Of a stretch of DNA of 64,000 bases, positions 1 to 64,000 are shown one piece after another (position 1 is the first letter of the stretch; each line of letters opens with the position of its first letter). This DNA comes from Eledone cirrhosa. Taxonomy: Eukaryota. The stretch spans positions 129,022,001 to 129,086,000 of the forward strand of contig OZ024744.1 of assembly GCA_964016885.1 (NCBI GenBank). Reading direction: 5' to 3'. Under the pieces are notes generated by a model. That model saw only the letters and a program-made list of their open reading frames with translations. It did no database searches and was not told the origin of the DNA. A program made the position numbers and the translations under genes.

Positions 1-289
1 TTTAAGTTAAGTTGGGGATAAGTTAAGTTGGGGTTAAGTTAAGTTGGGTTTAAGTTAAGTTGGGGTTAAGTTAAGTTGGGGTTAAGTTAAGTTGGGGTTA
101 AATTAAGTTGGGGTTAAGTTAAGTTGGGGTTGAGTAAAGTTGGGGTTAAGTTAAGTTGGGGTTAAATTAAGTTGGGGTTAAGTTAAGTTGGGGTTGAGTG
201 AAGTTGGGGTTAAGTTAAGTTGGGGTTAAATTAAGTTGGGGTTAAGTTTAGTTGGGGTTGAGTTTAGTTGGGGTTAATTTAAGTTGGGG

Positions 290-1500
290 TTAAGTTAAGT
301 TGGTTAGTTAAGTTGAGTTTAAGTTAAGTTGGGGTTAATTTAAGTTGGGGTTAAGTTAAGTTGGGGTTAAGTTAATTTGGGGTTAAGTTAAGTTGGGGTT
401 CAGTTAAGTTGGGGTTCAGTTAAGTTGGGGTTAAGTTGGGGTAAAATTAAGTTGGGGTTAAGTTAAGTTGCGGTTAAGTTAAAATGAGGTTAAGTTAAGT
501 TGGGGTTAAGTTAAGTTGGGGTTAAGTTAAGTTGGGGCTAAGTTAAGTTGGGGCTAAGTTAAGTTGGGGCTAAGTTAAGTTGGGATTAAGTTAACTTTGG
601 GTTAAGTTAAGTTGGGTTTGAGTTAAGTTGGGGTTAATTAAGTTGGGGTTAAGTTAAGTTGGGGTTAAGTTAAGTTGGGGTTAAGTTAAGTTGGGGTTAA
701 GTTAAGTTGATGTTAAGTTAAGTTGGGGTTAATTTAAGTTGGGGTTAAGTTAAGTTGGGGCTAAGTTAAGTTGGGGTTAAGTTAATTAGGGTTAAGTTAA
801 GTTGGGGTTAAGTTAAGTTGGGGTTAAGTTAAGTTGGGGTTAAGTTAATTTGTGGTTAAGTTAAGTTGGGGTTAAGTTAAGTTGGGGTTAAGTTAAGTTG
901 GGGATAAGTTAAGTTGAGGATAAGTTAAGTTGGGGTTAATTAAGTTGGGTTTAAGTTAAGTTGGGGTTAAGTTAAGTTGGGGTTAAGTTAAGTTGGGGTT
1001 AAGTTAAGTTGGTTAGTTAAGTTGAGTTTAAGTTAAGTTGGGGTTAATTTAAGTTGGGGTTAAGTTAAGTTGGGGTTAAGTTAATTTGGGGTTAAGTTAA
1101 GTTGGGGTTCAGTTAAGTTGGGGTTAAGTTAAGTTGGGGTTAAGTTGGGGTAAAATTAAGTTGGGGTTAAGTTAAGTTGCGGTTAAGTTAAAATGAGGTT
1201 AAGTTAAGTTGGGGTTAAGTTAAGTTGGGGTTAAGTTAAGTTTGGGCTAAGTTAAGTTGGGGCTAAGTTAAGTTGGGGCTAAGTTAAGTTGGGGTTAAGT
1301 TAACTTTGGGTTAAGTTAAGTTGGGTTTGAGTTAAGTTGGGGTTAATTAAGTTGGGGTTAAGTTAAGTTGGGGTTAAGTTAAGTTGGGGTTAAGTTAAGT
1401 TGGGGTTAAGTTAAGTTGATGTTAAGTTAAGTTGGGGTTAATTTAAGTTGGGGTTAAGTTAAGTTGGGGCTAAGTTAAGTTGGAGCTAAGTTAAGTTGGG
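290..1500 (+). repeat. ~709-bp sub-HOR doublet (AAAATGAGG / GGGGCT x3 / TTGATG module), first example
   Basis: AAAATGAGG pairs: 481/1190, 30530/31239, 37483/38192, 45784/46493 (all 709 bp), 49899/50603 and 56856/57560 (704 bp), 60662/61355 (693 bp). Confidence 0.9.
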
Positions 1501-1599
1501 GCTAAGTTAAGTTGGGGTTAAGTTAAGTTGGGGTTAAGTTAAGGTGGGGTTAAGTTAAGTTGGTGGTAAGTTAAGTTGGGGGTAAGTTAAGATGGGGTT

Positions 1600-2960
1600 A
1601 AGTTAGGGTTAAGTTAAGTTAGGGTTAAGTTAATTTGGGGTTGAGTTAAGTTGGGGTTAAGTTAAGTGGTGGTTATGTTAAGTTGGGGTTAAGTTAAGTT
1701 GGGGTTAATTTAAATTGGGGTTAATTTAAATTTGTTGTTAAGTTAAGTTGGGGTTAATTTAAGTTGGGGTTAAGTTAAGTTGGGGTTGAGTTAAGTTGGG
1801 GTTGAGTGAAGTTGGGGTTAAGTTAAGTTGGGGTTAAGTTAAGTTGGGGTTGAGTTAAGTTGGGGTTAATTTAAGTTGGGGCTAAGTTCATTTGGGGTTC
1901 AGTTAAGTTGGGGTTAAATTAAGTTGGGGTTAAGTTAAGTTGGGGTTAAATTAAGTTGGGGTTAAGTTAAGTTGGGGTTAAGTTAAGTTGGGGTTAAGTT
2001 AATTTGGGGTTAAGTGAAGTTAGGGTTAAGTTAAGTTGGGGTTGAGTTAAGTTGGGGGTAAGTTAAGTTGGGGTTATGTTAAGTTGGGGTTACGTTAAGT
2101 TGGGTTTAAGTTAAGTTGGGGTTAAGTTAAGTTGGGGTTAAGTTAAGTTGGGGTTAATTTAAGTTGGGGTTAAGTTAAGTTGGGATTAATTTAAGTTGGG
2201 GTTAAGTTAAGTTGGGGTTAAGTTAAGTTGGGGTTAAATTAAGTTGGGGTTAAGTTAAGTTGGGGTAAAGTTAAGTTGGGGTTAAGTTAATTTGGGGTTA
2301 AGTTAAGTTAGGGTAAAGTTAAGTTGGGGTTGAGTTAAGTTGGGGTAAGTTAAGTTGGGGTTAAGTTAAGTTGGGGTTAAGTTAAGTTGGGGTTAAGTTA
2401 AGTTAGGCTTAACTTAAGTTGGGGTTAAGTTAAGTTGGGGGTGAGTTAAGTTGGGGGTAAGTTAAGTTGGGGTTAAGTTAAGTTGGGGTTAAGTTGGGGT
2501 TAAGTTAAGTTAGGGTTAAGTTAATTTGGGGTTGAGTTAAGTTGGGGTTAAGTTAAGTGGTGGTTATGTTAAGTTGGGGTTAAGTTAAGTTGGGGTTAAT
2601 TTAAATTGGGGTTAATTTAAATTTGTTGTTAAGTTAAGTTGGGGTTAATTTAAGTTGGGGTTAAGTTAAGTTGGGGTTGAGTTAAGTTGTGGTTGAGTGA
2701 AGTTGGGGTTAAGTTAAGTTGGGGTTAAATTAAGTTGGGGTTAAGTTAAGTTGGGGTTGAGTTAAGTTGGGGTTAATTTAAGTTGGGGCTAAGTTAATTT
2801 GGGGTTAAGTTAAGTTGGGGTTAAATTAAGTTGGGGTTAAGTTAAGTTGGGGTTAAGTTAAGTTGGGGTTAAGTTAATTTGGGGTTAAGTGAAGTTAGGG
2901 TTAAGTTAAGTTGGGGCTGAGTTAAGTTGGGGGTAAGTTAAGTTGGGGCTATGTTAAGTT
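1600..2960 (+). repeat. ~891-bp sub-HOR doublet (TTAATTTAAATTTGTTG / GAGTGAAG module), first example
   Basis: TTTGTTG occurs at 1731/2622 and 5603/6494 (891 bp apart). The first copy carries TTCATTTGGGG; the second usually carries TTGTGG-TTGAGTG and GGGGCTGAG. Confidence 0.88.
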
Positions 2961-3109
2961 GGGGTTAAGTTAAGTTGGGGTTAAGTTAAGTTGGGGTTCA
3001 GTTAAGTTGCGGTTAAGTTAAGTTGGGGTTAAGTTAAGTTGGGGTTAAGTTAAGTTGGGGTTAATTTAAGTTGGGGTTAAGTTAAGTTGGGGTTAAGTTA
3101 ATTTGTGGT

Positions 3110-6100
3110 TAAGTTAAGTTGGGGTTAAGTTAAGTTGGGGTTAAATTCAGTCGGGGTTAAGTTAAGTCGGGGTTAAGTTACGTTGGGGTTAAGTTAAGTT
3201 GGGGTTAAGTTAAGTTGGGGTTGAGTTAAGTTGGGGTTAAGTTAAGTTGGGGTTAAGTTAAGTTGGGGTTAAGTTAAGTTGGGGTTAAGTTAAGTTGGGG
3301 TTAATTTAAGTTGGGGTTAAGTTAAGTTGGGGTTAATTTAAGTTGGGGTTAATTTAAGTTGGGGTTAAGTTAAGTTGGGGTTAAGTTAAGTTGGGGTAAC
3401 GTTAAGTTGGGGGTAAGTTAAGTTGGGGTTAAGTTAAGTTGGGGTTAAGTTGGGGTTAAGTTAAGTTAGGGTTAACTTAAGTTGGGGTTGTGTTAAGTGG
3501 TGGTTATGTTAAGTGGTGGTTATGTTAAGTTGGGGTTAAGTTAAGTTGGGGTTAAGTTAAGTTGGGGTTAAGTTAAGTTGGGGTTAAGTTAATTAGGGTT
3601 AAGTTAAGTTGGGTTTAAGTTAAGTTGGGGTTAAGTTAATTTGTGGTTAAGTTAAGTTGGGGTTAAGTTAAGTTGGGGTTAAGTTAAGTTGGGGATAAGT
3701 TAAGTTGGGGATAAGTTAAGTTGGGGTTAATTAAGTTGGGTTTAAGTTAAGTTGGGGTTAAGTTAAGTCGGGGTTAAGTTAAGTTGGGGTTAAGTTAAGT
3801 TGGGGGTAAGATAAGTTGGGGTTAGTTAAGTTGGGGTTAAGTAAAGTTGGGGTTCAGTTAAGTTGGGGTTAAGTTAAGTTAGGCTTAACTTAAGTTGGGG
3901 TTAAGTTAAGTTGGGGGTGAGTTAAGTTGGGGGTAAGTTAAGTTGAGGTTAAGTTAAGTTGGGGTTAAGTTGGGGTTAAGTTAATTTAGGGTTAAGTTAA
4001 GTTGGGGTTGAGTTAAGTTGGGGTTAAGTTAAGTGGTGGTTATGTTAAGTTGGGGTTAAGTTAAGTTGGGGTTAATTTAAATTGGGGTTAATTTAACTTT
4101 GTGGTTAAGTTAATTTGGGGTTAATTTAAGTTGGGGTTAAGTTAAGTTGGGGTTAATTTAATTTGTGGTTAAGTTAAGTTGGGGTTAAGTTAAGTTGGCG
4201 TTGAGTTAAGCTGGGGTTAAGTTAAGTTGGGGTTAAAATAAGTTGGGGTTAAGTTAAGTTGGGGTTGGGTTAAGTTGGGGTTGAGTTAATTTGGGGTTAA
4301 GTTAAGTTGGGGTTAACTTAAGTTGGGTTTAATTTAAGTTGGGGTTAAGTTAAGTTGGGGTTATAATTAAGTTGGGGTTAAGTTAAGTTGGGGGTAAGAT
4401 AAGTTGGGGTTAGTTAAGTTGCGGTTAAGTTAAGTTGGGGTTAAGTTAAGTTGGGGTTAAGTTAAGTTGGGGTTAAGTTAAGTTGGGGTTAATTTAAGTT
4501 GGGGTTAATTTAAGTTGGGGTAAAGTTAAGTTGGGGGTAAGTTAAGTTGGGGTTAAGTTAAGTTGGGGTTAAGTTGGGGTTAAGTTAAGTTAGGGTTAAC
4601 TTAAGTTGGGGTTGTGTTAAGTGGTGGTTATGTTAAGTGGTGGTTATGTTAAGTTGGGGTTAAGTTAAGTTGGGGTTAAGTTAAATTGGGGTTAAGTTAA
4701 GTTGCGGTTAAGTTAAGTTGGGGTTAAGTTAAGTTGGGGTTAAGTTAATTAGGGTTAAGTTAAGTTGGGGTTAAGTTAAGTTGGGGTTAAGTTAAGTTGG
4801 GGTTAAGTTAATTTGTGGTTAAGTTAAGTTGGGGTTAAGTTAAGTTGGGGTTAAGTTAAGTTGGGGATAAGTTAAGTTGAGGATAAGTTAAGTTGGGGTT
4901 AATTAAGTTGGGTTTAAGTTAAGTTGGGGTTAAGTTAAGTTGGGGTTAAGTTAAGTTGGGGTTAAGTTAAGTTGGTTAGTTAAGTTGAGTTTAAGTTAAG
5001 TTGGGGTTAATTTAAGTTGGGGTTAAGTTAAGTTGGGGTTAAGTTAATTTGGGGTTAAGTTAAGTTGGGGTTCAGTTAAGTTGGGGTTAATTAAGTTGGG
5101 GTTAAGTTAAGTTGGGGTTAAGTTAAGTTGGGGTTAAGTTAAGTTGGGGTTAAGTTAAGTTGATGTTAAGTTAAGTTGGGGTTAATTTAAGTTGGGGTTA
5201 AGTTAAGTTGGGGCTAAGTTAAGTTGGAGCTAAGTTAAGTTGGGGCTAAGTTAAGTTGGGGTTAAGTTAAGTTGGGGTTAAGTTAAGGTGGGGTTAAGTT
5301 AAGTTGGGGTCAACTTAAGTTGGGGTTAAGTTAAGTTGGGGTTAACTTAAGTTGGGGTTAAGTTAAGTTGGGGTTAAGTTAAGTTGGGGTTAAGTTAAGT
5401 TGGGGTTACGTTAAGTTGGGGGTAAGTTAAGTTGGTGGTAAGTTAAGTTGGGGGTAAGTTAAGATGGGGTTAAGTTAGGGTTAAGTTAAGTTAGGGTTAA
5501 GTTAATTTGGGGTTGAGTTAAGTTGGGGTTAAGTTAAGTGGTGGTTATGTTAAGTTGGGGTTAAGTTAAGTTGGGGTTAATTTAAATTGGGGTTAATTTA
5601 AATTTGTTGTTAAGTTAAGTTGGGGTTAATTTAAGTTGGGGTTAAGTTAAGTTGGGGTTGAGTTAAGTTGGGGTTGAGTGAAGTTGGGGTTAAGTTAAGT
5701 TGGGGTTAAGTTAAGTTGGGGTTGAGTTAAGTTGGGGTTAATTTAAGTTGGGGCTAAGTTCATTTGGGGTTCAGTTAAGTTGGGGTTAAATTAAGTTGGG
5801 GTTAAGTTAAGTTGGGGTTAAATTAAGTTGGGGTTAAGTTAAGTTGGGGTTAAGTTAAGTTGGGGTTAAGTTAATTTGGGGTTAAGTGAAGTTAGGGTTA
5901 AGTTAAGTTGGGGTTGAGTTAAGTTGGGGGTAAGTTAAGTTGGGGTTATGTTAAGTTGGGGTTACGTTAAGTTGGGTTTAAGTTAAGTTGGGGTTAAGTT
6001 AAGTTGGGGTTAAGTTAAGTTGGGGTTAATTTAAGTTGGGGTTAAGTTAAGTTGGGATTAATTTAAGTTGGGGTTAAGTTAAGTTGGGGTTAAGTTAAGT

Positions 6101-9100
6101 TGGGGTTAAATTAAGTTGGGGTTAAGTTAAGTTGGGGTTAAGTTAAGTTGGGGTTAAGTTAATTTGGGGTTAATTTAAGTTAGGGTAAAGTTAAGTTGGG
6201 GTTGAGTTAAGTTGGGGTAAGTTAAGTTGGGGTTAAGTTAAGTTGGGGTTAATTTAAGTTGGGGTTAAGTTAAGTTAGGCTTAACTTAAGTTGGGGTTAA
6301 GTTAAGTTGGGGGTGAGTTAAGTTGGGGGTAAGTTAAGTTGGGGTTAAGTTAAGTTGGGGTTAAGTTGGGGTTAAGTTAAGTTAGGGTTAAGTTAATTTG
6401 GGGTTGAGTTAAGTTGGGGTTAAGTTAAGTGGTGGTTATGTTAAGTTGGGGTTAAGTTAAGTTGGGGTTAATTTAAATTGGGGTTAATTTAAATTTGTTG
6501 TTAAGTTAAGTTGGGGTTAATTTAAGTTGGGGTTAAGTTAAGTTGGGGTTGAGTTAAGTTGTGGTTGAGTGAAGTTGGGGTTAAGTTAAGTTGGGGTTAA
6601 ATTAAGTTGGGGTTAAGTTAAGTTGGGGTTGAGTTAAGTTGGGGTTAATTTAAGTTGGGGCTAAGTTAATTTGGGGTTAAGTTAAGTTGGGGTTAAATTA
6701 AGTTGGGGTTAAGTTAAGTTGGGGTTAAGTTAAGTTGGGGTTAAGTTAATTTGGGGTTAAGTGAAGTTAGGGTTAAGTTAAGTTGGGGCTGAGTTAAGTT
6801 GGGGGTAAGTTAAGTTGGGGTTATGTTAAGTTGGGGTTAAGTTAAGTTGGGGTTAAGTTAAGTTGGGGTTCAGTTAAGTTGCGGTTAAGTTAAGTTGGGG
6901 TTAATTTAAGTTGGGGTTAAGTTAAGTTGGGGTTAATTTAAGTTGGGGTTAAGTTAAGTTGGGGTTAAGTTAATTTGTGGTTAAGTTAAGTTGGGGTTAA
7001 GTTAAGTTGGGGTTAAATTCAGTCGGGGTTAAGTTAAGTCGGGGTTAAGTTACGTTGGGGTTAAGTTAAGTTGGGGTTAAGTTAAGTTGGGGTTGAGTTA
7101 AGTTGGGGTTAAGTTAAGTTGGGGTTAAGTTAAGTTGGGGTTAAGTTAAGTTGGGGTTAAGTTAAGTTGGGGTTAATTTAAGTTGGGGTTAAGTTAAGTT
7201 GGGGTTAATTTAAGTTGGGGTTAATTTAAGTTGGGGTTAAGTTAAGTTGGGGTTAAGTTAAGTTGGGGTAACGTTAAGTTGGGGGTAAGTTAAGTTGGGG
7301 TTAAGTTAAGTTGGGGTTAAGTTGGGGTTAAGTTAAGTTAGGGTTAACTTAAGTTGGGGTTGTGTTAAGTGGTGGTTATGTTAAGTGGTGGTTATGTTAA
7401 GTTGGGGTTAAGTTAAGTTGGGGTTAAGTTAAGTTGGGGTTAAGTTAAGTTGGGGTTAAGTTAATTAGGGTTAAGTTAAGTTGGGTTTAAGTTAAGTTGG
7501 GGTTAAGTTAATTTGTGGTTAAGTTAAGTTGGGGTTAAGTTAAGTTGGGGTTAAGTTAAGTTGGGGATAAGTTAAGTTGGGGATAAGTTAAGTTGGGGTT
7601 AATTAAGTTGGGGTTAAGTTAAGTTGGGGTTAAGTTAAGTTGGGGGTAAGATAAGTTGGGGTTAGTTAAGTTGCGGTTAAGTTAAGTTGGGGTTAAGTTA
7701 AGTTGGGGTTAAGTTAAGTTGGGGTTAAGTTAAGTTGGGGTTAATTTAAGTTGGGGTTAATTTAAGTTGGGGTAAAGTTAAGTTGGGGGTAAGTTAAGTT
7801 GGGGTTAAGTTAAGTTGGGGTTAAGTTGGGGTTAAGTTAAGTTAGGGTTAACTTAAGTTGGGGTTGTGTTAAGTGGTGGTTATGTTAAGTGGTGGTTATG
7901 TTAAGTTGGGGTTAAGTTAAGTTGGGGTTAAGTTAAATTGGGGTTAAGTTAAGTTGCGGTTAAGTTAAGTTGGGGTTAAGTTAAGTTGGGGTTAAGTTAA
8001 TTAGGGTTAAGTTAAGTTGGGGTTAAGTTAAGTTGGGGTTAAGTTAAGTTGGGGTTAAGTTAATTTGTGGTTAAGTTAAGTTGGGGTTAAGTTAAGTTGG
8101 GGTTAAGTTAAGTTGGGGATAAGTTAAGTTGAGGATAAGTTAAGTTGGGGTTAATTAAGTTGGGTTTAAGTTAAGTTGGGGTTAAGTTAAGTTGGGGTTA
8201 AGTTAAGTTGGGGTTAAGTTAAGTTGGTTAGTTAAGTTGAGTTTAAGTTAAGTTGGGGTTAATTTAAGTTGGGGTTAAGTTAAGTTGGGGTTAAGTTAAT
8301 TTGGGGTTAAGTTAAGTTGGGGTTCAGTTAAGTTGGGGTTCAGTTAAGTTGGGGTTAAGTTGGGGTAAAATTAAGTTGGGGTTAAGTTAAGTTGCGGTTA
8401 AGTTAAAATGAGGTTAAGTTAAGTTGGGGTTAAGTTAAGTTGGGGTTAAGTTAAGTTGGGGCTAAGTTAAGTTGGGGCTAAGTTAAGTTGGGGCTAAGTT
8501 AAGTTGGGATTAAGTTAACTTTGGGTTAAGTTAAGTTGGGTTTGAGTTAAGTTGGGGTTAATTAAGTTGGGGTTAAGTTAAGTTGGGGTTAAGTTAAGTT
8601 GGGGTTAAGTTAAGTTGGGGTTAAGTTAAGTTGATGTTAAGTTAAGTTGGGGTTAATTTAAGTTGGGGTTAATTTAAATTTGTTGTTAATTTAAGTTGGG
8701 GTTAATTTAAGTTGGGGTTAAGTTAAGTTGGGGTTGAGTTAAGTTGTGGTTGAGTGAAGTTGGGGTTAAGTTAAGTTGGGGTTAAATTAAGTTGGGGTTA
8801 AGTTAAGTTGGGGTTGAGTTAAGTTGGGGTTAATTTAAGTTGGGGCTAAGTTAATTTGGGGTTAAGTTAAGTTGGGGTTAAATTAAGTTGGGGTTAAGTT
8901 AAGTTGGGGTTAAGTTAAGTTGGGGTTAAGTTAATTTGGGGTTAAGTGAAGTTAGGGTTAAGTTAAGTTGGGGCTGAGTTAAGTTGGGGGTAAGTTAAGT
9001 TGGGGTTATGTTAAGTTGGGGTTAAGTTAAGTTGGGGTTAAGTTAAGTTGGGGTTCAGTTAAGTTGCGGTTAAGTTAAGTTGGGGTTAAGTTAAGTTGGG

Positions 9101-36900: not shown

Positions 36901-38710
36901 AAGTTGGGGTTAAGTTAAGTTAGGGTTAACTTAAGTTGGGGTTGTGTTAAGTGGTGGTTATGTTAAGTGGTGGTTATGTTAAGTTGGGGTTAAGTTAAGT
37001 TGGGGTTAAGTTAAATTGGGGTTAAGTTAAGTTGCGGTTAAGTTAAGTTGGGGTTAAGTTAAGTTGGGGTTAAGTTAATTAGGGTTAAGTTAAGTTGGGG
37101 TTAAGTTAAGTTGGGGTTAAGTTAAGTTGGGGTTAAGTTAATTTGTGGTTAAGTTAAGTTGGGGTTAAGTTAAGTTGGGGTTAAGTTAAGTTGGGGATAA
37201 GTTAAGTTGAGGATAAGTTAAGTTGGGGTTAATTAAGTTGGGTTTAAGTTAAGTTGGGGTTAAGTTAAGTTGGGGTTAAGTTAAGTTGGGGTTAAGTTAA
37301 GTTGGTTAGTTAAGTTGAGTTTAAGTTAAGTTGGGGTTAATTTAAGTTGGGGTTAAGTTAAGTTGGGGTTAAGTTAATTTGGGGTTAAGTTAAGTTGGGG
37401 TTCAGTTAAGTTGGGGTTCAGTTAAGTTGGGGTTAAGTTGGGGTAAAATTAAGTTGGGGTTAAGTTAAGTTGCGGTTAAGTTAAAATGAGGTTAAGTTAA
37501 GTTGGGGTTAAGTTAAGTTGGGGTTAAGTTAAGTTGGGGCTAAGTTAAGTTGGGGCTAAGTTAAGTTGGGGCTAAGTTAAGTTGGGATTAAGTTAACTTT
37601 GGGTTAAGTTAAGTTGGGTTTGAGTTAAGTTGGGGTTAATTAAGTTGGGGTTAAGTTAAGTTGGGGTTAAGTTAAGTTGGGGTTAAGTTAAGTTGGGGTT
37701 AAGTTAAGTTGATGTTAACTTAAGTTGGGGTTAATTTAAGTTGGGGTTAAGTTAAGTTGGGGCTAAGTTAAGTTGGGGTTAAGTTAATTAGGGTTAAGTT
37801 AAGTTGGGGTTAAGTTAAGTTGGGGTTAAGTTAAGTTGGGGTTAAGTTAATTTGTGGTTAAGTTAAGTTGGGGTTAAGTTAAGTTGGGGTTAAGTTAAGT
37901 TGGGGATAAGTTAAGTTGAGGATAAGTTAAGTTGGGGTTAATTAAGTTGGGTTTAAGTTAAGTTGGGGTTAAGTTAAGTTGGGGTTAAGTTAAGTTGGGG
38001 TTAAGTTAAGTTGGTTAGTTAAGTTGAGTTTAAGTTAAGTTGGGGTTAATTTAAGTTGGGGTTAAGTTAAGTTGGGGTTAAGTTAATTTGGGGTTAAGTT
38101 AAGTTGGGGTTCAGTTAAGTTGGGGTTAAGTTAAGTTGGGGTTAAGTTGGGGTAAAATTAAGTTGGGGTTAAGTTAAGTTGCGGTTAAGTTAAAATGAGG
38201 TTAAGTTAAGTTGGGGTTAAGTTAAGTTGGGGTTAAGTTAAGTTGGGGCTAAGTTAAGTTGGGGCTAAGTTAAGTTGGGGCTAAGTTAAGTTGGGGTTAA
38301 GTTAACTTTGGGTTAAGTTAAGTTGGGTTTGAGTTAAGTTGGGGTTAATTAAGTTGGGGTTAAGTTAAGTTGGGGTTAAGTTAAGTTGGGGTTAAGTTAA
38401 GTTGGGGTTAAGTTAAGTTGATGTTAAGTTAAGTTGGGGTTAATTTAAGTTGGGGTTAAGTTAAGTTGGGGCTAAGTTAAGTTGGAGCTAAGTTAAGTTG
38501 GGGCTAAGTTAAGTTGGGGTTAAGTTAAGTTGGGGTTAAGTTAAGGTGGGGTTAAGTTAAGTTGGGGTCAACTTAAGTTGGGGTTAAGTTAAGTTGGGGT
38601 TAACTTAAGTTGGGGTTAAGTTAAGTTGGGGTTAAGTTAAGTTGGGGTTAAGTTAAGTTGGGGTTACGTTAAGTTGGGGGTAAGTTAAGTTGGTGGTAAG
38701 TTAAGTTGGG
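24825..38710 (+). repeat. 6,921-bp tandem duplication, junction at ~31745-31760
   Basis: Offset 6921 for GAGGATA 24850/31771, AAAATGAGG 25124/32045 and GAATGAAG 27833/34754. Offset becomes 6953 after a net 32-bp gain at ~35471 (30530/37483, 31239/38192). Confidence 0.9.
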
Positions 38711-52500: not shown

Positions 52501-55500
52501 GGGGTTAAGTTAAGTTGGGGTTAAGTTAAGTTGGGGTAACGTTAAGTTGGGGGTAAGTTAAGTTGGGGTTAAGTTAAGTTGGGGTTAAGTTGGGGTTAAG
52601 TTAAGTTAGGGTTAACTTAAGTTGGGGTTGTGTTAAGTGGTGGTTATGTTAAGTGGTGGTTATGTTAAGTTGGGGTTAAGTTAAGTTGGGGTTAAGTTAA
52701 GTTGGGGTTAAGTTAAGTTGGGGTTAAGTTAATTAGGGTTAAGTTAAGTTGGGTTTAAGTTAAGTTGGGGTTAAGTTAATTTGTGGTTAAGTTAAGTTGG
52801 GGTTAAGTTAAGTTGGGGTTAAGTTAAGTTGGGGATAAGTTAAGTTGGGGATAAGTTAAGTTGGGGTTAATTAAGTTGGGTTTAAGTTAAGTTGGGGTTA
52901 AGTTAAGTCGGGGTTAAGTTAAGTTGGGGTTAAGTTAAGTTGGGGGTAAGATAAGTTGGGGTTAGTTAAGTTGCGGTTAAGTTAAGTTGGGGTTAAGTTA
53001 AGTTGGGGTTAAGTTAAGTTGGGGTTAAGTTAAGTTGGGGTTAATTTAAGTTGGGGTTAATTTAAGTTGGGGTAAAGTTAAGTTGGGGGTAAGTTAAGTT
53101 GGGGTTAAGTTAAGTTGGGGTTAAGTTGGGGTTAAGTTAAGTTAGGGTTAACTTAAGTTGGGGTTGTGTTAAGTGGTGGTTATGTTAAGTGGTGGTTATG
53201 TTAAGTTGGGGTTAAGTTAAGTTGGGGTTAAGTTAAATTGGGGTTAAGTTAAGTTGCGGTTAAGTTAAGTTGGGGTTAAGTTAAGTTGGGGTTAAGTTAA
53301 TTAGGGTTAAGTTAAGTTGGGGTTAAGTTAAGTTGGGGTTAAGTTAAGTTGGGGTTAAGTTAATTTGTGGTTAAGTTAAGTTGGGGTTAAGTTAAGTTGG
53401 GGTTAAGTTAAGTTGGGGATAAGTTAAGTTGAGGATAAGTTAAGTTGGGGTTAATTAAGTTGGGTTTAAGTTAAGTTGGGGTTAAGTTAAGTTGGGGTTA
53501 AGTTAAGTTGGGGTTAAGTTAAGTTGGTTAGTTAAGTTGAGTTTAAGTTAAGTTGGGGTTAATTTAAGTTGGGGTTAAGTTAAGTTGGGGTTAAGTTAAT
53601 TTGGGGTTAAGTTAAGTTGGGGTTCAGTTAAGTTGGGGTTCAGTTAAGTTGGGGTTAAGTTGGGGTAAAATTAAGTTGGGGTTAAGTTAAGTTGCGGTTA
53701 AGTTAAAATGAGGTTAAGTTAAGTTGGGGCTAAGTTAAGTTGGAGCTAAGTTAAGTTGGGGCTAAGTTAAGTTGGGGTTAAGTTAAGTTGGGGTTAAGTT
53801 AAGGTGGGGTTAAGTTAAGTTGGGGTCAACTTAAGTTGGGGTTAAGTTAAGTTGGGGTTAACTTAAGTTGGGGTTAAGTTAAGTTGGGGTTAAGTTAAGT
53901 TGGGGTTAAGTTAAGTTGGGGTTACGTTAAGTTGGGGGTAAGTTAAGTTGGTGGTAAGTTAAGTTGGGGGTAAGTTAAGATGGGGTTAAGTTAGGGTTAA
54001 GTTAAGTTAGGGTTAAGTTAATTTGGGGTTGAGTTAAGTTGGGGTTAAGTTAAGTGGTGGTTATGTTAAGTTGGGGTTAAGTTAAGTTGGGGTTAATTTA
54101 AATTGGGGTTAATTTAAATTTGTTGTTAAGTTAAGTTGGGGTTAATTTAAGTTGGGGTTAAGTTAAGTTGGGGTTGAGTTAAGTTGGGGTTGAGTGAAGT
54201 TGGGGTTAAGTTAAGTTGGGGTTAAGTTAAGTTGGGGTTGAGTTAAGTTGGGGTTAATTTAAGTTGGGGCTAAGTTCATTTGGGGTTCAGTTAAGTTGGG
54301 GTTAAATTAAGTTGGGGTTAATTTAAGTTGGGGTTAAATTAAGTTGGGGTTAAGTTAAGTTGGGGTTAAGTTAAGTTGGGGTTAAGTTAATTTGGGGTTA
54401 AGTGAAGTTAGGGTTAAGTTAAGTTGGGGTTGAGTTAAGTTGGGGGTAAGTTAAGTTGGGGTTATGTTAAGTTGGGGTTACGTTAAGTTGGGTTTAAGTT
54501 AAGTTGGGGTTAAGTTAAGTTGGGGTTACGTTAAGTTGGGGTTAATTTAAGTTGGGGTTAAGTTAAGTTGGGATTAATTTAAGTTGGGGTTAAGTTAAGT
54601 TGGGGTTAAGTTAAGTTGGGGTTAAGTTAATTTGGGGTTAAGTTAAGTTAGGGTAAAGTTAAGTTGGGGTTGAGTTAAGTTGGGGTAAGTTAAGTTGGGG
54701 TTAAGTTAAGTTGGGGTTAAGTTAAGTTGGGGTTAAGTTAAGTTAGGCTTAACTTAAGTTGGGGTTAAGTTAAGTTGGGGGTGAGTTAAGTTGGGGGTAA
54801 GTTAAGTTGGGGTTAAGTTAAGTTGGGGTTAAGTTGGGGTTAAGTTAAGTTAGGGTTAAGTTAATTTGGGGTTGAGTTAAGTTGGGGTTAAGTTAAGTGG
54901 TGGTTATGTTAAGTTGGGGTTAAGTTAAGTTGGGGTTAATTTAAATTGGGGTTAATTTAAATTTGTTGTTAAGTTAAGTTGGGGTTAATTTAAGTTGGGG
55001 TTAAGTTAAGTTGGGGTTGAGTTAAGTTGTGGTTGAGTGAAGTTGGGGTTAAGTTAAGTTGGGGTTAAATTAAGTTGGGGTTAAGTTAAGTTGGGGTTGA
55101 GTTAAGTTGGGGTTAATTTAAGTTGGGGCTAAGTTAATTTGGGGTTAAGTTAAGTTGGGGTTAAATTAAGTTGGGGTTAAGTTAAGTTGGGGTTAAGTTA
55201 AGTTGGGGTTAAGTTAATTTGGGGTTAAGTGAAGTTAGGGTTAAGTTAAGTTGGGGCTGAGTTAAGTTGGGGTTATGTTAAGTTGGGGTTAAGTTAAGTT
55301 GGGGTTAAGTTAAGTTGGGGTTCAGTTAAGTTGCGGTTAAGTTAAGTTGGGGTTAAGTTAAGTTGGGGTTAAGTTAAGTTGGGGTTAATTTAAGTTGGGG
55401 TTAAGTTAAGTTGGGGTTAAGTTAATTTGTGGTTAAGTTAAGTTGGGGTTAAGTTAAGTTGGGGTTAAATTCAGTCGGGGTTAAGTTAAGTCGGGGTTAA

Positions 55501-58500
55501 GTTACGTTGGGGTTAAGTTAAGTTGGGGTTAAGTTAAGTTGGGGTTGAGTTAAGTTGGGGTTAAGTTAAGTTGGGGTTAAGTTAAATGGGGTTAATTTAA
55601 GTTGGGGTTAAGTTAAGTTGGGGTTAATTTAAGTTGGGGTTAAGTTAAGTTGGGGTTAATTTAAGTTGGGGTTAATTTAAGTTGGGGTTAAGTTAAGTTG
55701 GGGTTAAGTTAAGTTGGGGTAACGTTAAGTTGGGGGTAAGTTAAGTTGGGGTTAAGTTAAGTTGGGGTTAAGTTGGGGTTAAGTTAAGTTAGGGTTAACT
55801 TAAGTTGGGGTTGTGTTAAGTGGTGGTTATGTTAAGTGGTGGTTATGTTAAGTTGGGGTTAAGTTAAGTTGGGGTTAAGTTAAGTTGGGGTTAAGTTAAG
55901 TTGGGGTTAAGTTAATTAGGGTTAAGTTAAGTTGGGTTTAAGTTAAGTTGGGGTTAAGTTAATTTGTGGTTAAGTTAAGTTGGGGATAAGTTAAGTTGGG
56001 GGTAAGTTAAGTTGGGGTTAATTAAGTTGGGTTTAAGTTAAGTTGGGGTTAAGTTAAGTCGGGGTTAAGTTAAGTTGGGGTTAAGTTAAGTTGGGGGTAA
56101 GATAAGTTGGGGTTAGTTAAGTTGCGGTTAAGTTAAGTTGGGGTTAAGTTAAGTTGGGGTTAAGTTAAGTTGGGGTTAAGTTAAGTTGGGGTTAATTTAA
56201 GTTGGGGTTAATTTAAGTTGGGGTAAAGTTAAGTTGGGGGTAAGTTAAGTTGGGGTTAAGTTAAGTTGGGGTTAAGTTGGGGTTAAGTTAAGTTAGGGTT
56301 AACTTAAGTTGGGGTTGTGTTAAGTGGTGGTTATGTTAAGTGGTGGTTATGTTAAGTTGGGGTTAAGTTAAGTTGGGGTTAAGTTAAATTGGGGTTAAGT
56401 TAAGTTGCGGTTAAGTTAAGTTGGGGTTAAGTTAAGTTGGGGTTAAGTTAATTAGGGTTAAGTTAAGTTGGGGTTAAGTTAAGTTGGGGTTAAGTTAAGT
56501 TGGGGTTAAGTTAATTTGTGGTTAAGTTAAGTTGGGGTTAAGTTAAGTTGGGGTTAAGTTAAGTTGGGGATAAGTTAAGTTGAGGATAAGTTAAGTTGGG
56601 GTTAATTAAGTTGGGTTTAAGTTAAGTTGGGGTTAAGTTAAGTTGGGGTTAAGTTAAGTTGGGGTTAAGTTAAGTTGGTTAGTTAAGTTGAGTTTAAGTT
56701 AAGTTGGGGTTAATTTAAGTTGGGGTTAAGTTAAGTTGGGGTTAAGTTAATTTGGGGTTAAGTTAAGTTGGGGTTCAGTTAAGTTGGGGTTCAGTTAAGT
56801 TGGGGTTAAGTTGGGGTAAAATTAAGTTGGGGTTAAGTTAAGTTGCGGTTAAGTTAAAATGAGGTTAAGTTAAGTTGGGGTTAAGTTAAGTTGGGGTTAA
56901 GTTAAGTTGGGGCTAAGTTAAGTTGGGGCTAAGTTAAGTTGGGGCTAAGTTAAGTTGGGATTAAGTTAACTTTGGGTTAAGTTAAGTTGGGTTTGAGTTA
57001 AGTTGGGGTTAATTAAGTTGGGGTTAAGTTAAGTTGGGGTTAAGTTGGGGTTAAGTTAAGTTGGGGTTAAGTTAAGTTGATGTTAAGTTAAGTTGGGGTT
57101 AATTTAAGTTGGGGTTAAGTTAAGTTGGGGCTAAGTTAAGTTGGGGTTAAGTTAATTAGGGTTAAGTTAAGTTGGGGTTAAGTTAAGTTGGGGTTAAGTT
57201 AAGTTGGGGTTAAGTTAATTTGTGGTTAAGTTAAGTTGGGGTTAAGTTAAGTTGGGGTTAAGTTAAGTTGGGGATAAGTTAAGTTGAGGATAAGTTAAGT
57301 TGGGGTTAATTAAGTTGGGTTTAAGTTAAGTTGGGGTTAAGTTAAGTTGGGGTTAAGTTAAGTTGGGGTTAAGTTAAGTTGGTTAGTTAAGTTGAGTTTA
57401 AGTTAAGTTGGGGTTAATTTAAGTTGGGGTTAAGTTAAGTTGGGGTTAAGTTAATTTGGGGTTAAGTTAAGTTGGGGTTCAGTTAAGTTGGGGTTAAGTT
57501 AAGTTGGGGTTAAGTTGGGGTAAAATTAAGTTGGGGTTAAGTTAAGTTGCGGTTAAGTTAAAATGAGGTTAAGTTAAGTTGGGGTTAAGTTAAGTTGGGG
57601 TTAAGTTAAGTTGGGGCTAAGTTAAGTTGGGGCTAAGTTAAGTTGGGGCTAAGTTAAGTTGGGGTTAAGTTAACTTTGGGTTAAGTTAAGTTGGGTTTGA
57701 GTTAAGTTGGGGTTAATTAAGTTGGGGTTAAGTTAAGTTGGGGTTAAGTTAAGTTGGGGTTAAGTTAAGTTGGGGTTAAGTTAAGTTGATGTTAAGTTAA
57801 GTTGGGGTTAATTTAAGTTGGGGTTAAGTTAAGTTGGGGCTAAGTTAAGTTGGAGCTAAGTTAAATTGGGGCTAAGTTAAGTTGGGGTTAAGTTAAGTTG
57901 GGGTTAAGTTAAGGTGGGGTTAAGTTAAGTTGGGGTCAACTTAAGTTGGGGTTAAGTTAAGTTGGGGTTAACTTAAGTTGGGGTTAAGTTAAGTTGGGGT
58001 TAAGTTAAGTTGGGGTTAAGTTAAGTTGGGGTTACGTTAAGTTGGGGGTAAGTTAAGTTGGTGGTAAGTTAAGTTGGGGGTAAGTTAAGATGGGGTTAAG
58101 TTAGGGTTAAGTTAAGTTAGGGTTAAGTTAATTTAGTGTTGAGTTAAGTTGGGGTTAAGTTAAGTGGTGGTTATGTTAAGTTGGGGTTAAGTTAAATTGG
58201 GGTTAATTTAAATTGGGGTTAATTTAAATTTGTTGTTAAGTTAAGTTGGGGTTAATTTAAGTTGGGGTTAAGTTAAGTTGGGGTTGAGTTAAGTTGGGGT
58301 TGAGTGAAGTTGGGGTTAAGTTAAGTTGGGGTTGAGTTAAGTTGGGGTTAATTTAAGTTGGGGCTAAGTTCATTTGGGGTTCAGTTAAGTTGGGGTTAAA
58401 TTAAGTTGGGGTTAAGTTAAGTTGGGGTTAAATTAAGTTGGGGTTAAGTTAAGTTGGGGTTAAGTTAAGTTGGGGTTAAGTTAATTTGGGGTTAAGTGAA

Positions 58501-60686
58501 GTTAGGGTTAAGTTAAGTTGGGGTTGAGTTAAGTTGGGGGTAAGTTAAGTTGGGGTTATGTTAAGTTGGGGTTACGTTAAGTTGGGTTTAAGTTAAGTTG
58601 GGGTTAAGTTAAGTTGGGGTTAAGTTAAGTTGGGGTTAATTTAAGTTGGGGTTAAGTTAAGTTGGGATTAATTTAAGTTGGGGTTAAGTTAAGTTGGGGT
58701 TAAGTTAAGTTGGGGTTAAATTAAGTTGGGGTTAAGTTAAGTTGGGGTTAAGTTAAGTTGGGGTTAAGTTAATTTGGGGTTAAGTTAAGTTAGGGTAAAG
58801 TTAAGTTGGGGTTGAGTTAAGTTGGGGTAAGTTAAGTTGGGGTTAAGTTAAGTTGGGGTTAAGTTAAGTTGGGGTTAAGTTAAGTTAGGCTTAACTTAAG
58901 TTGGGGTTAAGTTAAGTTGGGGGTGAGTTAAGTTGGGGGTAAGTTAAGTTGGGGTTAAGTTAAGTTGGGGTTAAGTTGGGGTTAAGTTAAATTAGGGTTA
59001 AGTTAATTTGGGGTTGAGTTAAGTTGGGGTTAAGTTAAGTGGTGGTTATGTTAAGTTGGGGTTAAGTTAAGTTGGGGTTAAGTTAAGTTGGGGTTCAGTT
59101 AAGTTGCGGTTAAGTTAAGTTGGGGTTAAGTTAAGTTGGGGTTAAGTTAAGTTGGGGTTAATTTAAGTTGGGGTTAAGTTAAGTTGGGGTTAAGTTAATT
59201 TGTGGTTAAGTTAAGTTGGGGTTAAGTTAAGTTGGGGTTAAATTCAGTCGGGGTTAAGTTAAGTCGGGGTTAAGTTACGTTGGGGTTAAGTTAAGTTGGG
59301 GTTGAGTTAAGTTGGGGTTGAGTTAAGTTGGGGTTAATTTAAGTTGGGGTTAAGTTAAGTTGGGGTTAAGTTAAGTTGGGGTTAAGTTAAGTTGGGGTTA
59401 ATTTAAGTTGGGGTTAAGTTAAGTTGGGGTTAATTTAAGTTGGTGTTAATTTAAGTTGGGGTTAAGTTAAGTTGGGGTTAAGTTAAGTTGGGGTAACGTT
59501 AAGTTGGGGGTAAGTTAAGTTGGGGTTAAGTTAAGTTGGGGTTAAGTTGGGGTTAAGTTAAGTTAGGGTTAACTTAAGTTGGGGTTGTGTTAAGTGGTGG
59601 TTATGTTAAGTGGTGGTTATGTTAAGTTGGGGTTAAGTTAAGTTGGGGTTAAGTTAAGTTGGGGTTAAGTTAAGTTGGGGTTAAGTTAATTAGGGTTAAG
59701 TTAAGTTGGGTTTAAGTTAAGTTGGGGTTAAGTTAATTTGTGGTTAAGTTAAGTTGGGGTTAAGTTAAGTTGGGGTTAAGTTAAGTTGGGGATAAGTTAA
59801 GTTGGGGATAAGTTAAGTTGGGGTTAATTAAGTTGGGTTTAAGTTAAGTTGGGGTTAAGTTAAGTCGGGGTTAAGTTAAGTTGGGGTTAAGTTAAGTTGG
59901 GGGTAAGATAAGTTGGGGTTAGTTAAGTTGCGGTTAAGTTAAGTTGGGGTTAAGTTAAGTTGGGGTTAAGTTAAGTTGGGGTTAAGTTAAGTTGGGGTTA
60001 ATTTAAGTTGGGGTTAATTTAAGTTGGGGTAAAGTTAAGTTGGGGGTAAGTTAAGTTGGGGTTAAGTTAAGTTGGGGTTAAGTTGGGGTTAAGTTAAGTT
60101 AGGGTTAACTTAAGTTGGGGTTGTGTTAAGTGGTGGTTATGTTAAGTGGTGGTTATGTTAAGTTGGGGTTAAGTTAAGTTGGGGTTAAGTTAAATTGGGG
60201 TTAAGTTAAGTTGCGGTTAAGTTAAGTTGGGGTTAAGTTAAGTTGGGGTTAAGTTAATTAGGGTTAAGTTAAGTTGGGGTTAAGTTAAGTTGGGGTTAAG
60301 TTAAGTTGGGGTTAAGTTAATTTGTGGTTAAGTTAAGTTGGGGTTAAGTTAAGTTGGGGTTAAGTTAAGTTGGGGATAAGTTAAGTTGAGGATAAGTTAA
60401 GTTGGGGTTAATTAAGTTGGGTTTAAGTTAAGTTGGGGTTAAGTTAAGTTGGGGTTAAGTTAAGTTGGGGTTAAGTTAAGTTGGTTAGTTAAGTTGAGTT
60501 TAAGTTAAGTTGGGGTTAATTTAAGTTGGGGTTAAGTTAAGTTGGGGTTAAGTTAATTTGGGGTTAAGTTAAGTTGGGGTTCAGTTAAGTTGGGGTTCAG
60601 TTAAGTTGGGGTTAAGTTGGGGTAAAATTAAGTTGGGGTTAAGTTAAGTTGCGGTTAAGTTAAAATGAGGTTAAGTTAAGTTGGGG
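46757..60686 (+). repeat. 6,957-bp near-identical tandem duplication, junction at ~53714-53729
   Basis: Constant offset 6957 for GGAGCT 46785/53742, AAATGGGG 48627/55584, ATTTAGTG 51174/58131, TGGTGTT 52484/59441 and AAAATGAGG 49899/56856, 50603/57560, 53705/60662. Confidence 0.93.
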
Positions 60687-63600
60687 TTAAGTTAAGTTGG
60701 GGCTAAGTTAAGTTGGGGCTAAGTTAAGTTGGGGCTAAGTTAAGTTGGAATTAAGTTAACTTTGGGTTAAGTTAAGTTGGGTTTGAGTTAAGTTGGGGTT
60801 AATTAAGTTGGGGTTAAGTTAAGTTGGGGTTAAGTTAAGTTGGGGTTAAGTTAAGTTGGGGTTAAGTTAAGTTGATGTTAAATTAAGTTGGGGTTAATTT
60901 AAGTTGGGGTTAAGTTAAGTTGGGGCTAAGTTAAGTTGGGGTTAAGTTAATTAGGGTTAAGTTAAGTTGGGGTTAAGTTAAGTTGGGGTTAAGTTAAGTT
61001 GGGGTTAAGTTAATTTGTGGTTAAGTTAAGTTGGGGTTAAGTTAAGTTGGGGTTAAGTTAAGTTGGGGATAAGTTAAGTTGAGGATAAGTTAAGTTGGGG
61101 TTAATTAAGTTGGGTTTAAGTTAAGTTGGGGTTAAGTTAAGTTGGGGTTAAGTTAAGTTGGGGTTAAGTTAAGTTGGTTAGTTAAGTTGAGTTTAAGTTA
61201 AGTTGGGGTTAATTTAAGTTGGGGTTAAGTTAAGTTGGGGTTAAGTTAATTTGGGGTTAAGTTAAGTTGGGGTTCAGTTAAGTTGGGGTTAAGTTAAGTT
61301 GGGGTTAAGTTGGGGTAAAATTAAGTTGGGGTTAAGTTAAGTTGCGGTTAAGTTAAAATGAGGTTAAGTTAAGTTGGGGTTAAGTTAAGTTGGGGTTAAG
61401 TTAAGTTGGGGCTAAGTTAAGTTGGGGCTAAGTTAAGTTGGGGCTAAGTTAAGTTGGGGTTAAGTTAACTTTCGGTTAAGTTAAGTTGGGTTTGAGTTAA
61501 GTTGGGGTTAATTAAGTTGGGGTTAAGTTAAGTTGGGGTTAAGTTAAGTTGGGGTTAAGTTAAGTTGGGGTTAAGTTAAGTTGATGTTAAGTTAAGTTGG
61601 GGTTAATTTAAGTTGGGGTTAAGTTAAGTTGGGGCTAAGTTAAGTTGGAGCTAAGTTAAATTGGGGCTAAGTTAAGTTGGGGTTAAGTTAAGTTGGGGTT
61701 AAGTTAAGGTGGGGTTAAGTTAAGTTGGGGTCAACTTAAGTTGGGGTTAAGTTAAGTTGGGGTTAACTTAAGTTGGGGTTAAGTTAAGTTGGGGTTAAGT
61801 TAAGTTGGGGTTAAGTTAAGTTGGGGTTACGTTAAGTTGGGGGTAAGTTAAGTTGGTGGTAAGTTAAGTTGGGGGTAAGTTAAGATGGGGTTAAGTTAGG
61901 GTTAAGTTAAGTTAGGGTTAAGTTAATTTGGGGTTGAGTTAAGTTGGGGTTAAGTTAAGTGGTGGTTATGTTAAGTTGGGGTTAAGTTAAGTTGGGGTTA
62001 ATTTAAATTGGGGTTAATTTAAATTTGTTGTTAAGTTAAGTTGGGGTTAATTTAAGTTGGGGTTAAGTTAAGTTGGGGTTGAGTTAAGTTGGGGTTGAGT
62101 GAAGTTGGGGTTAAGTTAAGTTGGGGTTGGGTTGAGTTAAGTTGGGGTTAATTTAAGTTGGGGCTAAGTTCATTTGGGGTTCAGTTAAGTTGGGGTTAAA
62201 TTAAGTTGGGGTTAAGTTAAGTTGGGGTTAAATTAAGTTGGGGTTAAGTTAAGTTGGGGTTAAGTTAAGTTGGGGTTAAGTTAATTTGGGGTTAAGTGAA
62301 GTTAGGGTTAAGTTAAGTTGGGGTTGAGTTAAGTTGGGGGTAAGTTAAGTTGGGGTTATGTTAAGTTGGGGTTACGTTAAGTTGGGTTTAAGTTAAGTTG
62401 GGGTTAAGTTAAGTTGGGGTTAAGTTAAGTTGGTGTTAATTTAAGTTGGGGTTAAGTTAAGTTGGGATTAATTTAAGTTGGGGTTAAGTTAAGTTGGGGT
62501 TAAGTTAAGTTGGGGTTAAATTAAGTTGGGGTTAAGTTAAGTTGGGGTTAAGTTAAGTTGGGGTTAAGTTAATTTGGGGTTAAGTTAAGTTAGGGTAAAG
62601 TTAAGTTGGGGTTGAGTTAAGTTGGGGTAAGTTAAGTTGGGGTTAAGTTAAGTTGGGGTTAAGTTAAGTTGGGGTTAAGTTAAGTTAGGCTTAACTTAAG
62701 TTGGGGTTAAGTTAAGTTGGGGGTGAGTTAAGTTGGGGGTAAGTTAAGTTGGGGTTAAGTTAAGTTGGGGTTAAGTTGGGGTTAAGTTAAGTTAGGGTTA
62801 AGTTAATTTGGGGTTGAGTTAAGTTGGGGTTAAGTTAAGTGGTGGTTATGTTAAGTTGGGGTTAAGTTAAGTTGGGGTTAATTTAAATTGGGGTTAATTT
62901 AAATTTGTTGTTAAGTTAAGTTGGGGTTAATTTAAGTTGGGGTTAAGTTAAGTTGGGGTTGAGTTAAGTTGTGGTTGAGTGAAGTTGGGGTTAAGTTAAG
63001 TTGGGGTTAAATTAAGTTGGGGTTAAGTTAAGTTGGGGTTGAGTTAAGTTGGGGTTAATTTAAGTTGGGGCTAAGTTAATTTGGGGTTAAGTTAAGTTGG
63101 GGTTAAATTAAGTTGGGGTTAAGTTAAGTTGGGGTTAAGTTAAGTTGGGGTTAAGTTAATTTGGGGTTAAGTGAAGTTAGGGTTAAGTTAAGTTGGGGCT
63201 GAGTTAAGTTGGGGGTAAGTTAAGTTGGGGTTATGTTAAGTTGGGGTTAAGTTAAGTTGGGGTTAAGTTAAGTTGGGGTTCAGTTAAGTTGCGGTTAAGT
63301 TAAGTTGGGGTTAAGTTAAGTTGGGGTTAAGTTAAGTTGGGGTTAATTTAAGTTGGGGTTAAGTTAAGTTGGGGTTAAGTTAATTTGTGGTTAAGTTAAG
63401 TTGGGGTTAAGTTAAGTTGGGGTTAAATTCAGTCGGGGTTAAGTTAAGTCGGGGTTAAGTTACGTTGGGGTTAAGTTAAGTTGGGGTTAAGTTAAGTTGG
63501 GGTTGAGTTAAGTTGGGGTTAAGTTAAGTTGGGGTTAAGTTAAGTTGGGGTTAAGTTAAGTTGGGGTTAAGTTAAGTTGGGGTTAATTTAAGTTGGGGTT

Positions 63601-64000
63601 AAGTTAAGTTGGGGTTAATTTAAGTTGGGGTTAATTTAAGTTGGGGTTAAGTTAAGTTGGGGTTAAGTTAAGTTGGGGTTAAGTTAAGTTGGGGTTAAGT
63701 TGGGGTTAAGTTAAGTTAGGGTTAACTTAAGTTGGGGTTGTGTTAAGTGGTGGTTATGTTAAGTGGTGGTTATGTTAAGTTGGGGTTAAGTTAAGTTGGG
63801 GTTAAGTTAAGTTGGGGTTAAGTTAAGTTGGGGTTAAGTTAATTAGGGTTAAGTTAAGTTGGGTTTAAGTTAAGTTGGGGTTAAGTTAATTTGTGGTTAA
63901 GTTAAGTTGGGGTTAAGTTAAGTTGGGGTTAAGTTAAGTTGGGGATACGTTAAGTTGGGGATAAGTTAAGTTGGGGTTAATTAAGTTGGGTTTAAGTTAA

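What the first reader, a model, noticed from the sequence alone, without database searches (positions are those of the whole stretch)
1..64000. Telomere-like 16-mer array with centromere-style higher-order structure: telomere-derived satellite or recombination-maintained telomere
Seen: strict G-strand asymmetry, TTnnG-type subunits, one orientation for at least 64 kb, and variants copied in register over kilobases. Established: telomerase re-copies a short RNA template, so it cannot propagate ordered multi-kb variant patterns; unequal exchange, break-induced replication and rolling-circle copying can. Inference: this is either a telomere-derived motif amplified as a (peri)centromeric or interstitial satellite, or a chromosome-end array kept by a recombination (ALT-like) route. 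I do not recognise this monomer as a described repeat, but could not search.
Basis: partly seen in the sequence, partly recalled or inferred. Interest (0 to 1): 0.75.

Follow-up and report, generated by a model that had tools for sequence, protein, structure and literature searches.

The report
Octopus internal satellite, not a telomere
This is a slice of an 8.4-million-base internal block of a 16-letter repeat in a likely octopus genome whose assembled chromosome tips carry the ordinary animal telomere repeat; it likely arose by a two-letter shortening of an older repeat found at one region on several chromosomes, so it is likely centromere-region DNA grown by local copying, not a new kind of telomere.

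Summary
Observation confirmed: about 4,040 copies of TTAAGTTAAGTTGGGG, all on one strand, with ~4-kb higher-order repeats; 92% of the window lies in exact repeats of 500 bp or more. A telomeric role is refuted. The array is internal (C28:126.97-135.35 Mb, 1.15 Mb from the scaffold end) and has inversions outside the window. 0 of 46 chromosome-scale scaffold ends carry it, 10 of 46 carry the canonical hexamer, and a TERT exon is present. The genome is likely an octopod's. The 16-mer is not pan-centromeric: arrays on C28, mid-C2 and mid-C3 account for about all genome-wide hits. A more diverged 32-bp repeat bounds the C28 domain on both sides, differs from the 16-mer by two deletions, and marks one region on C2, C8, C13, C14 and C18. 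Best reading: a young layer of a centromere-region satellite complex, grown by local duplication. CENP-A occupancy is untested and telomere ancestry only weakly supported. The scan already noted this array in neighbouring windows. New member of a known kind.

The parts
1..64000 (+). Continuous tandem array of the 16-bp unit TTAAGTTAAGTTGGGG (5+5+6 subunits), about 5% mean divergence, with no other sequence inserted; a slice of the 8.38-Mb array at G000:C28:126,967,458 to about 135,348,075
   Evidence: array limits
1582..5453 (+). One copy (3,872 bp) of the local higher-order repeat; about 14-15 mosaic copies in the window, with variable length and optional modules
   Evidence: marker positions and spacings; monomer code
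474..1182 (+). 709-bp sub-module duplicated inside the higher-order unit (nested duplication); its marker variant is confined to C28:128.737-129.173 Mb (98 of 98 genome hits)
3442..6717 (+). 3,276-bp segment copied exactly at 11059-14334 (7,617 bp away)
46774..53729 (+). First copy of a perfect 6,956-bp tandem duplication
53731..60686 (+). Second, identical copy of the 6,956-bp duplication

Best explanation
The window is part of an 8.4-Mb internal satellite array near one end of chromosome-scale scaffold C28 of a likely octopod; it is likely the young, expanded layer of that chromosome's centromere-region repeat complex, likely passive heterochromatin, likely derived from an older 32-bp repeat by loss of two bases and likely grown by local kilobase-scale duplication and gene conversion. 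Shown: position, limits, neighbours, sequence relation and local higher-order domains. Inferred steps: (1) a 16-bp unit arose from part of the 32-bp unit and was amplified; (2) unit-preserving tandem duplications of about 0.4-7 kb between nearby repeats, plus conversion, built ~4-kb mosaic higher-order repeats that are homogeneous over only ~0.4 Mb; (3) fold-back or template switching at the palindromic TTAA of the unit produced the inversions; (4) ectopic exchange between centromere regions placed the repeat on C2 and C3.
For: Position: 40 of 41 samples between 127.02 and 135.33 Mb are mostly 16-mer; borders. Relation: the 16-mer fits the 32-mer ring with 2 edits, matched by 2 of 400 shuffles; cost per base is 0.17-0.18 for the 32-mer array against 0.06-0.07 for the 16-mer. 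The two repeats join in the same polarity at both outer limits of the C28 domain, 124.60 and 135.348 Mb. The 32-mer occurs with an AT-rich 37-bp family at one region of C8 (51% of length), C13 (56%), C14 (51%), C18 (30%) and C2 (50%), with degenerate internal hexamer tracts beside it on C8, C13 and C14. The other 16-mer arrays lie at 49% of C3 and 50% of C2. AT-rich islands lie inside the C28 array. Growth: 49 exact copies of 400 bp or more, at offsets of 1-44 kb, make up 48.5 kb of the window, and the marker variant is confined to 437 kb. This matches the kb-scale unit-preserving duplications and conversions measured in Arabidopsis centromeres (10.1101/2025.06.02.657473, passages). The commonest G-to-C strand junctions read GGGGTTAACCCC.
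Against: No chromatin, Hi-C or cytological data were available, so the centromere position is inferred from repeat co-location. The 16-mer was found on only 3 of 27 chromosome-scale scaffolds. The two 43/30-nt searches (one listing cut at 100 of 203 hits) and one sampled locus placed the 32-mer on 7 of 27, including a 3-kb patch at 99% of C10 with no AT-rich family seen beside it. C1 has two candidate sites 62 Mb apart, hexamer tracts at 49% and a 196/227-bp array at 63%. The 16/32 comparison is post hoc between low-complexity units and its direction is inferred from divergence alone. The two flanking 32-mer blocks share 3,925 40-mers, so the two junctions are not independent. No exact 16-mer unit was seen in 10 of 10 32-mer samples.
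Confidence: 0.5

Rival explanations
1. The 16-mer array is itself the active, CENP-A-bound centromere of a subtelocentric C28 (and perhaps of C3), in a polytypic genome where different chromosomes use different young satellites between shared older layers.
For: By the count budget it is by far the largest block of this repeat, and it is homogeneous and bracketed by an older layer. On C18 the AT-rich family and on C14 a 98%-identical 321-bp repeat occupy the same middle position between 32-mer blocks. Sub-100-bp candidate centromeric satellites (32 of 263 families) and chromosome-segregated families are known (10.64898/2026.09.17.752431, section 6).
Against: G-rich telomere-like mosaics beside Arabidopsis centromeres exclude CENH3 (10.64898/2026.05.10.723265, section 7). 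No single most-homogeneous core stands out along the array. A 196/227-bp family with 15,048 exact core hits, also present at C28:124.8-126.4 Mb, is a more conventional candidate.
Confidence: 0.25
2. It is a chromosome-specific heterochromatin block, possibly on the Z chromosome, unrelated to the centromere; the co-located repeats mark old fusion or rearrangement sites.
For: Internal hexamer tracts lie beside the cluster on C3, C8, C13 and C14; octopod karyotypes were shaped by fusions (PMC12682272, passages). About 90% of the pure-trimer hits are explained by C28 alone. C28 is listed after the size-sorted scaffolds, where sex chromosomes are usually placed (recalled convention).
Against: The recurrent, layered cluster at one region on several small chromosomes fits centromere regions better. 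Z identity was not shown: the one Z-marker homologue tested lies on unplaced C1420.
Confidence: 0.18
3. It is a chromosome-end array maintained by recombination (ALT-like) or by a telomerase with a 16-nt template.
For: Strict G-strand asymmetry, with the G strand mostly running toward the near end. Neither end of C28 is capped in the assembly.
Against: 1.15 Mb of other sequence lies distal, with no gap seen at the border. 0 of 46 ends carry the 16-mer and 10 of 46 carry nearly pure canonical hexamer. There are Mb-internal inversions. A TERT C-terminal exon scores over the Pfam cut-off and its only PDB matches are TERT. There are 0 short-loop G-quadruplex motifs in the window against 208 in 5 kb of true telomere.
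Confidence: 0.02
4. The higher-order pattern or array size is an assembly artefact (collapsed or duplicated reads).
For: One 6,956-bp duplication is perfect. The C3 array ends at a gap. Assembly errors in such arrays are documented (passages).
Against: Copies are mosaic and carry private variants (25 singleton types). No N was seen in 41 of 41 C28 array samples. Different domains have different higher-order units.
Confidence: 0.03

Closest known systems
Arabidopsis CenTel / interstitial telomeric repeat domains (10.64898/2026.05.10.723265; abstract and sections 6-7 read)
   Same: Megabase G-rich telomere-like satellite near centromeres with HOR blocks. The 520-bp composite on C2 (196/227-family spacer plus a 16-mer island) and the spacer islands in the C3 hexamer tract mirror the 530/600-bp CenTel mosaic.
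   Different: The window has no spacer and its unit is not the organism's telomere motif; chromatin state is untested here.
Satellite centromeres with heterogeneous HORs, ditypic or polytypic genomes (10.64898/2026.09.17.752431, section 6 read; 10.1101/2025.06.02.657473, passages)
   Same: Mb array, irregular kb-scale HORs, local homogenised blocks, skewed variant frequencies (log-log slope -1.58, r2 0.83), families segregated by chromosome.
   Different: 16-bp monomer, far below the usual 100-200 bp; found on 3 of 27 scaffolds; CENP-A untested.
Telomere-similar centromeric repeats of Solanum (seen only as cited in review PMC5615363, passages)
   Same: Telomere-like repeats amplified in centromere regions.
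   Different: There the motif is recognisably telomeric and functional centromeres were mapped; here the link to the hexamer is indirect and weak.
Canonical cephalopod telomere (Amphioctopus areolatus, as cited in PMC13218726, passages)
   Same: The hexamer at this genome's capped ends is the same motif.
   Different: The 16-mer is not that motif and is not terminal.

Membership tests
Telomere repeat (telomerase or ALT) | Located at chromosome ends | tested here: not met
   0 of 46 chromosome-scale ends examined (of 54); array ends 1.15 Mb from the scaffold end
Telomere repeat (telomerase or ALT) | G strand runs toward the end throughout | tested here: not met
   reverse blocks in 15 of 41 samples
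ALT telomere | C-circles, loss of telomerase dependence | not testable with these tools
   TERT exon present; intactness and activity of TERT not tested
Interstitial telomeric sequence | Array of the organism's telomere motif or near variants | tested here: not met
   173 canonical hexamers in 64 kb; 5 edits per unit, p 0.11 against same-composition shuffles, 0.008 against random 36% GC
Centromeric satellite | Megabase tandem array with higher-order repeats | tested here: met
Centromeric satellite | One locus on most chromosomes | tested here: not met
   16-mer on C28, C2 and C3; these explain about all 26,931 + 2,975 trimer hits within sampling error, so small arrays elsewhere are not excluded
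Centromeric satellite | Co-location with repeats that mark one region per chromosome | tested here: inconclusive
   32-mer on 7 of 27 scaffolds in partial listings, with the AT-rich family on 6 of those 7
Centromeric satellite | CENP-A occupancy or primary constriction | not testable with these tools
   no chromatin or cytology data
CenTel-type mosaic | Unit joins a centromere-type satellite and a telomeric island | tested here: not met
   absent in the window; an analogous composite with the 16-mer exists on C2

The most novel reading that the evidence does not exclude
The first cephalopod centromere architecture: chromosome-specific young satellites sit between shared older layers, and on C28 (perhaps the Z) the kinetochore has been taken over by a G4-prone 16-mer descended stepwise from telomeric DNA (hexamer tract, then 32-mer, then 16-mer), with the intermediates preserved at the array edges.
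Probability: 0.15. Interest if true: 0.72.

Novelty: new member of a known kind. Interest (0 to 1): 0.38.

Why it matters
It removes a false candidate for a new telomere system. My literature searches found no description of cephalopod centromeric DNA or of this monomer. The 325-genome centromere atlas has no 'octopus', 'cephalopod' or 'mollusc' in its main text; its supplements were closed and could list such a family. The cluster gives concrete FISH and CENP-A targets, and a possible frozen record of satellite turnover (32-mer to 16-mer) with parent and daughter side by side.

Tried and rejected
TERT search with PF12009 found nothing (uninformative, since exons are split and no control rang). 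Z test: PF16471 gave no hit; PF09744 hit C1 (RILP-like by my recall) and unplaced C1420 (JIP3/4-like by my recall), so C28 = Z is neither shown nor excluded. Coding role rejected: the longest stop-free frame is 31 codons. Reversion of variants toward the canonical hexamer: not seen (the relevant change is in 7 of 86 16-nt types; A 31 against T 30 at the matching 32-mer column). Strand asymmetry as a telomere hallmark rejected: several other short satellites sampled have GC skew of 0.7-1.0 in magnitude. A single rolling-circle burst is disfavoured because copies are mosaic and of unequal length. The motif search of papers gave no hit for the four 16-letter terms among the 20 of 33 papers listed; those listed matched only 11-letter terms and were unrelated. 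Scan look-ups by nearness and by sequence returned nothing. A genome-wide list of the starts of long telomere tracts was not obtained, so internal hexamer tracts are known only where sampled.

Full report
OBSERVATION. The window is one uninterrupted array of TTAAGTTAAGTTGGGG. It parses into 4,041 pieces of 109 types, 39% exact consensus, all on one strand. Coding monomers as letters shows a recurring order of modules. Once-per-unit markers recur at a median of 4.1 kb with wide spread, and a 709-bp module is duplicated inside the unit. 92% of bases lie in exact repeats of 500 bp or more, and there is a perfect 6,956-bp tandem duplication; monomer shuffles show none of this.

HOST. The genome has 2.996 Gb in 1,796 pieces, 27 of chromosome scale. 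It has a 2.87-kb 18S rRNA gene and molluscan haemocyanin genes in clusters of seven units. One unit scores 656 and 650 bits on PDB 6r83 and 1js8, against 507 for the best unit of 3j32. That 6r83 and 1js8 are from squid and octopus, and that seven units mean octopod and eight mean decapod, is recalled. I call it a likely octopod and go no further.

NOT A TELOMERE. The window is C28:129.02-129.09 Mb of 136.50 Mb. The main array runs from 126,967,458 to about 135,348,075, followed by 1.15 Mb of other repeats and a 30-bp repeat at the uncapped scaffold end. 40 of 41 samples inside are mostly 16-mer and 15 of 41 hold inverted blocks. Of 46 chromosome-scale ends read (of 54), 10 carry canonical hexamer in the expected orientation and none carries the 16-mer. 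That hexamer is the one reported for an octopus (PMC13218726, passages; the primary paper was not seen). A TERT C-terminal exon is present in three identical copies on C27.

WHERE ELSE. The 16-mer forms a pure array of about 0.61 Mb at 49% of C3. It starts back to back with a degenerate internal hexamer tract and ends at an assembly gap. At 50% of C2 it forms ~250-bp islands in a 520-bp composite with a spacer from a 196/227-bp satellite family. Sampled densities predict 24,700 +/- 2,200 forward trimer hits from C28 and, by my arithmetic, about 1,800 from C3, against 26,931 observed. Reverse hits (2,975) fit C28 inversions plus C2. So it is not the general centromeric repeat, though small arrays elsewhere could hide in the error. 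The window's own higher-order unit is local: a marker variant has 98 of 98 hits within 437 kb, and other parts of the array have other periods.

ORIGIN. At the distal border the array passes, in the same polarity, into a more diverged 32-bp repeat made of five hexamer-length subunits plus two bases (an exact unit lies at L141:9780-9811). The same repeat opens the domain at 124.554 Mb and runs into a further 16-mer block at 124.60 Mb. Removing two bases from 18 bases of it gives the 16-mer (2 edits; 2 of 400 shuffles), and it is about 2.5-3 times as diverged. The two flanking blocks are related by duplication, so this is not two independent events, though the junction letters differ. The 32-mer recurs with an AT-rich 37-bp family at one region of C2, C8, C13, C14 and C18, with internal hexamer tracts on C8, C13 and C14, and as a small patch near the end of C10. 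The AT-rich family also interrupts the C28 array. I read these clusters as centromere regions, which is inference. Telomere ancestry is possible but weak: p 0.11 for the 16-mer, 0.02 for the 32-mer, and no bias of variants toward the hexamer.

MECHANISM. Telomerase cannot copy ordered kb patterns (established knowledge). Mosaic copies at offsets of 1-44 kb fit repeated unit-preserving tandem duplication and non-allelic conversion, as measured in Arabidopsis centromeres (10.1101/2025.06.02.657473, passages). The commonest inversion junction is centred on the unit's palindromic TTAA, which suggests fold-back or template switching. G4Hunter mean is 1.01 against 1.50 for true telomere, with only long-loop motifs, so G-quadruplex-driven instability is possible but modest.

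COMPARISON. Closest are Arabidopsis CenTel domains, which are CENH3-free (10.64898/2026.05.10.723265, abstract and sections 6-7), and heterogeneous-HOR, polytypic satellite centromeres (10.64898/2026.09.17.752431, section 6 and passages; supplements closed). Solanum precedents were seen only in review PMC5615363 (passages). Also consulted: PMC10925132 (parts 1-2 of 5), PMC13122204 and PMC12682272 (passages), 10.1101/2024.12.09.627507 (term search, nothing relevant). C28 may be the Z from its place in the scaffold order, but my marker test was inconclusive.

EARLIER SCAN NOTES. Several unchecked notes already describe this array as internal and centromere-like. I reproduced its position, size, end survey and AT-rich islands. 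The two-deletion link to the 32-mer is not in the snippets I saw, though their 'telomere-like partner' may be that repeat.

VERDICT. A real satellite, apparently undescribed in the papers searched, of a known kind; not a telomere; likely centromere-region DNA, with function untested. Interest 0.38.

Noticed in passing
G000:C28:124.55-124.60 and 135.348-135.372 Mb (L171, L172, L189-L192, L140, L141, L203); also C2, C8, C10, C13, C14, C18: Diverged 32-bp hexamer-phased repeat with occasional canonical telomere hexamers; candidate parent of the 16-mer and marker of centromere regions.
   Followed up: yes
L019, L118-L120, L148 (C2:209.196-209.88 Mb): 520-bp composite satellite: two 196/227-family half units plus a 16-mer island, flanked by AT-rich repeats; CenTel-like.
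   Followed up: partly
L009, L035, L174, L178-L180 (C28:124.8-126.2 Mb): ~317-bp satellite containing pieces 82-97% identical to the genome's own 18S rDNA.
   Followed up: partly
L164 (C14:23.5 Mb) and L123 (C2:208.9 Mb): ~320-bp satellite, 98% homogeneous on C14, lying between two 32-mer/hexamer blocks; another centromere candidate.
   Followed up: no
L040 (C1:217.9 Mb), L107, L108, L188 (C3:184.65-184.77 Mb): Long degenerate internal telomere-hexamer tracts at the middle of giant scaffolds; on C3 interrupted by 227-bp satellite islands.
   Followed up: partly
L208 (C19 end) and L072 (C7 end): Assembled ends finish in other short telomere-like repeats (mixed 5-9-bp units on C19; a 33-bp hexamer-phased unit on C7) rather than the canonical hexamer.
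   Followed up: no
L209-L211 (C27:13.14, 14.25, 14.73 Mb): TERT C-terminal exon in three identical copies; segmental duplication or assembly duplication.
   Followed up: partly
C1:173.7-173.9 Mb, C26:21.9-22.0 Mb, C27:0.06 Mb: Five seven-unit haemocyanin gene clusters on two chromosomes, plus two divergent units on C27.
   Followed up: no
L130, L131, L133, L134 (C28:126.92-126.97 Mb): 84-bp tandem repeats resembling C2H2 zinc-finger coding units (recalled pattern) run up to the proximal border of the array, which joins them without a gap.
   Followed up: no
L001:7650-9850 (window position about -2350 to -150): 2.2-kb AT-rich palindromic (37-bp family) island just upstream of the window.
   Followed up: partly
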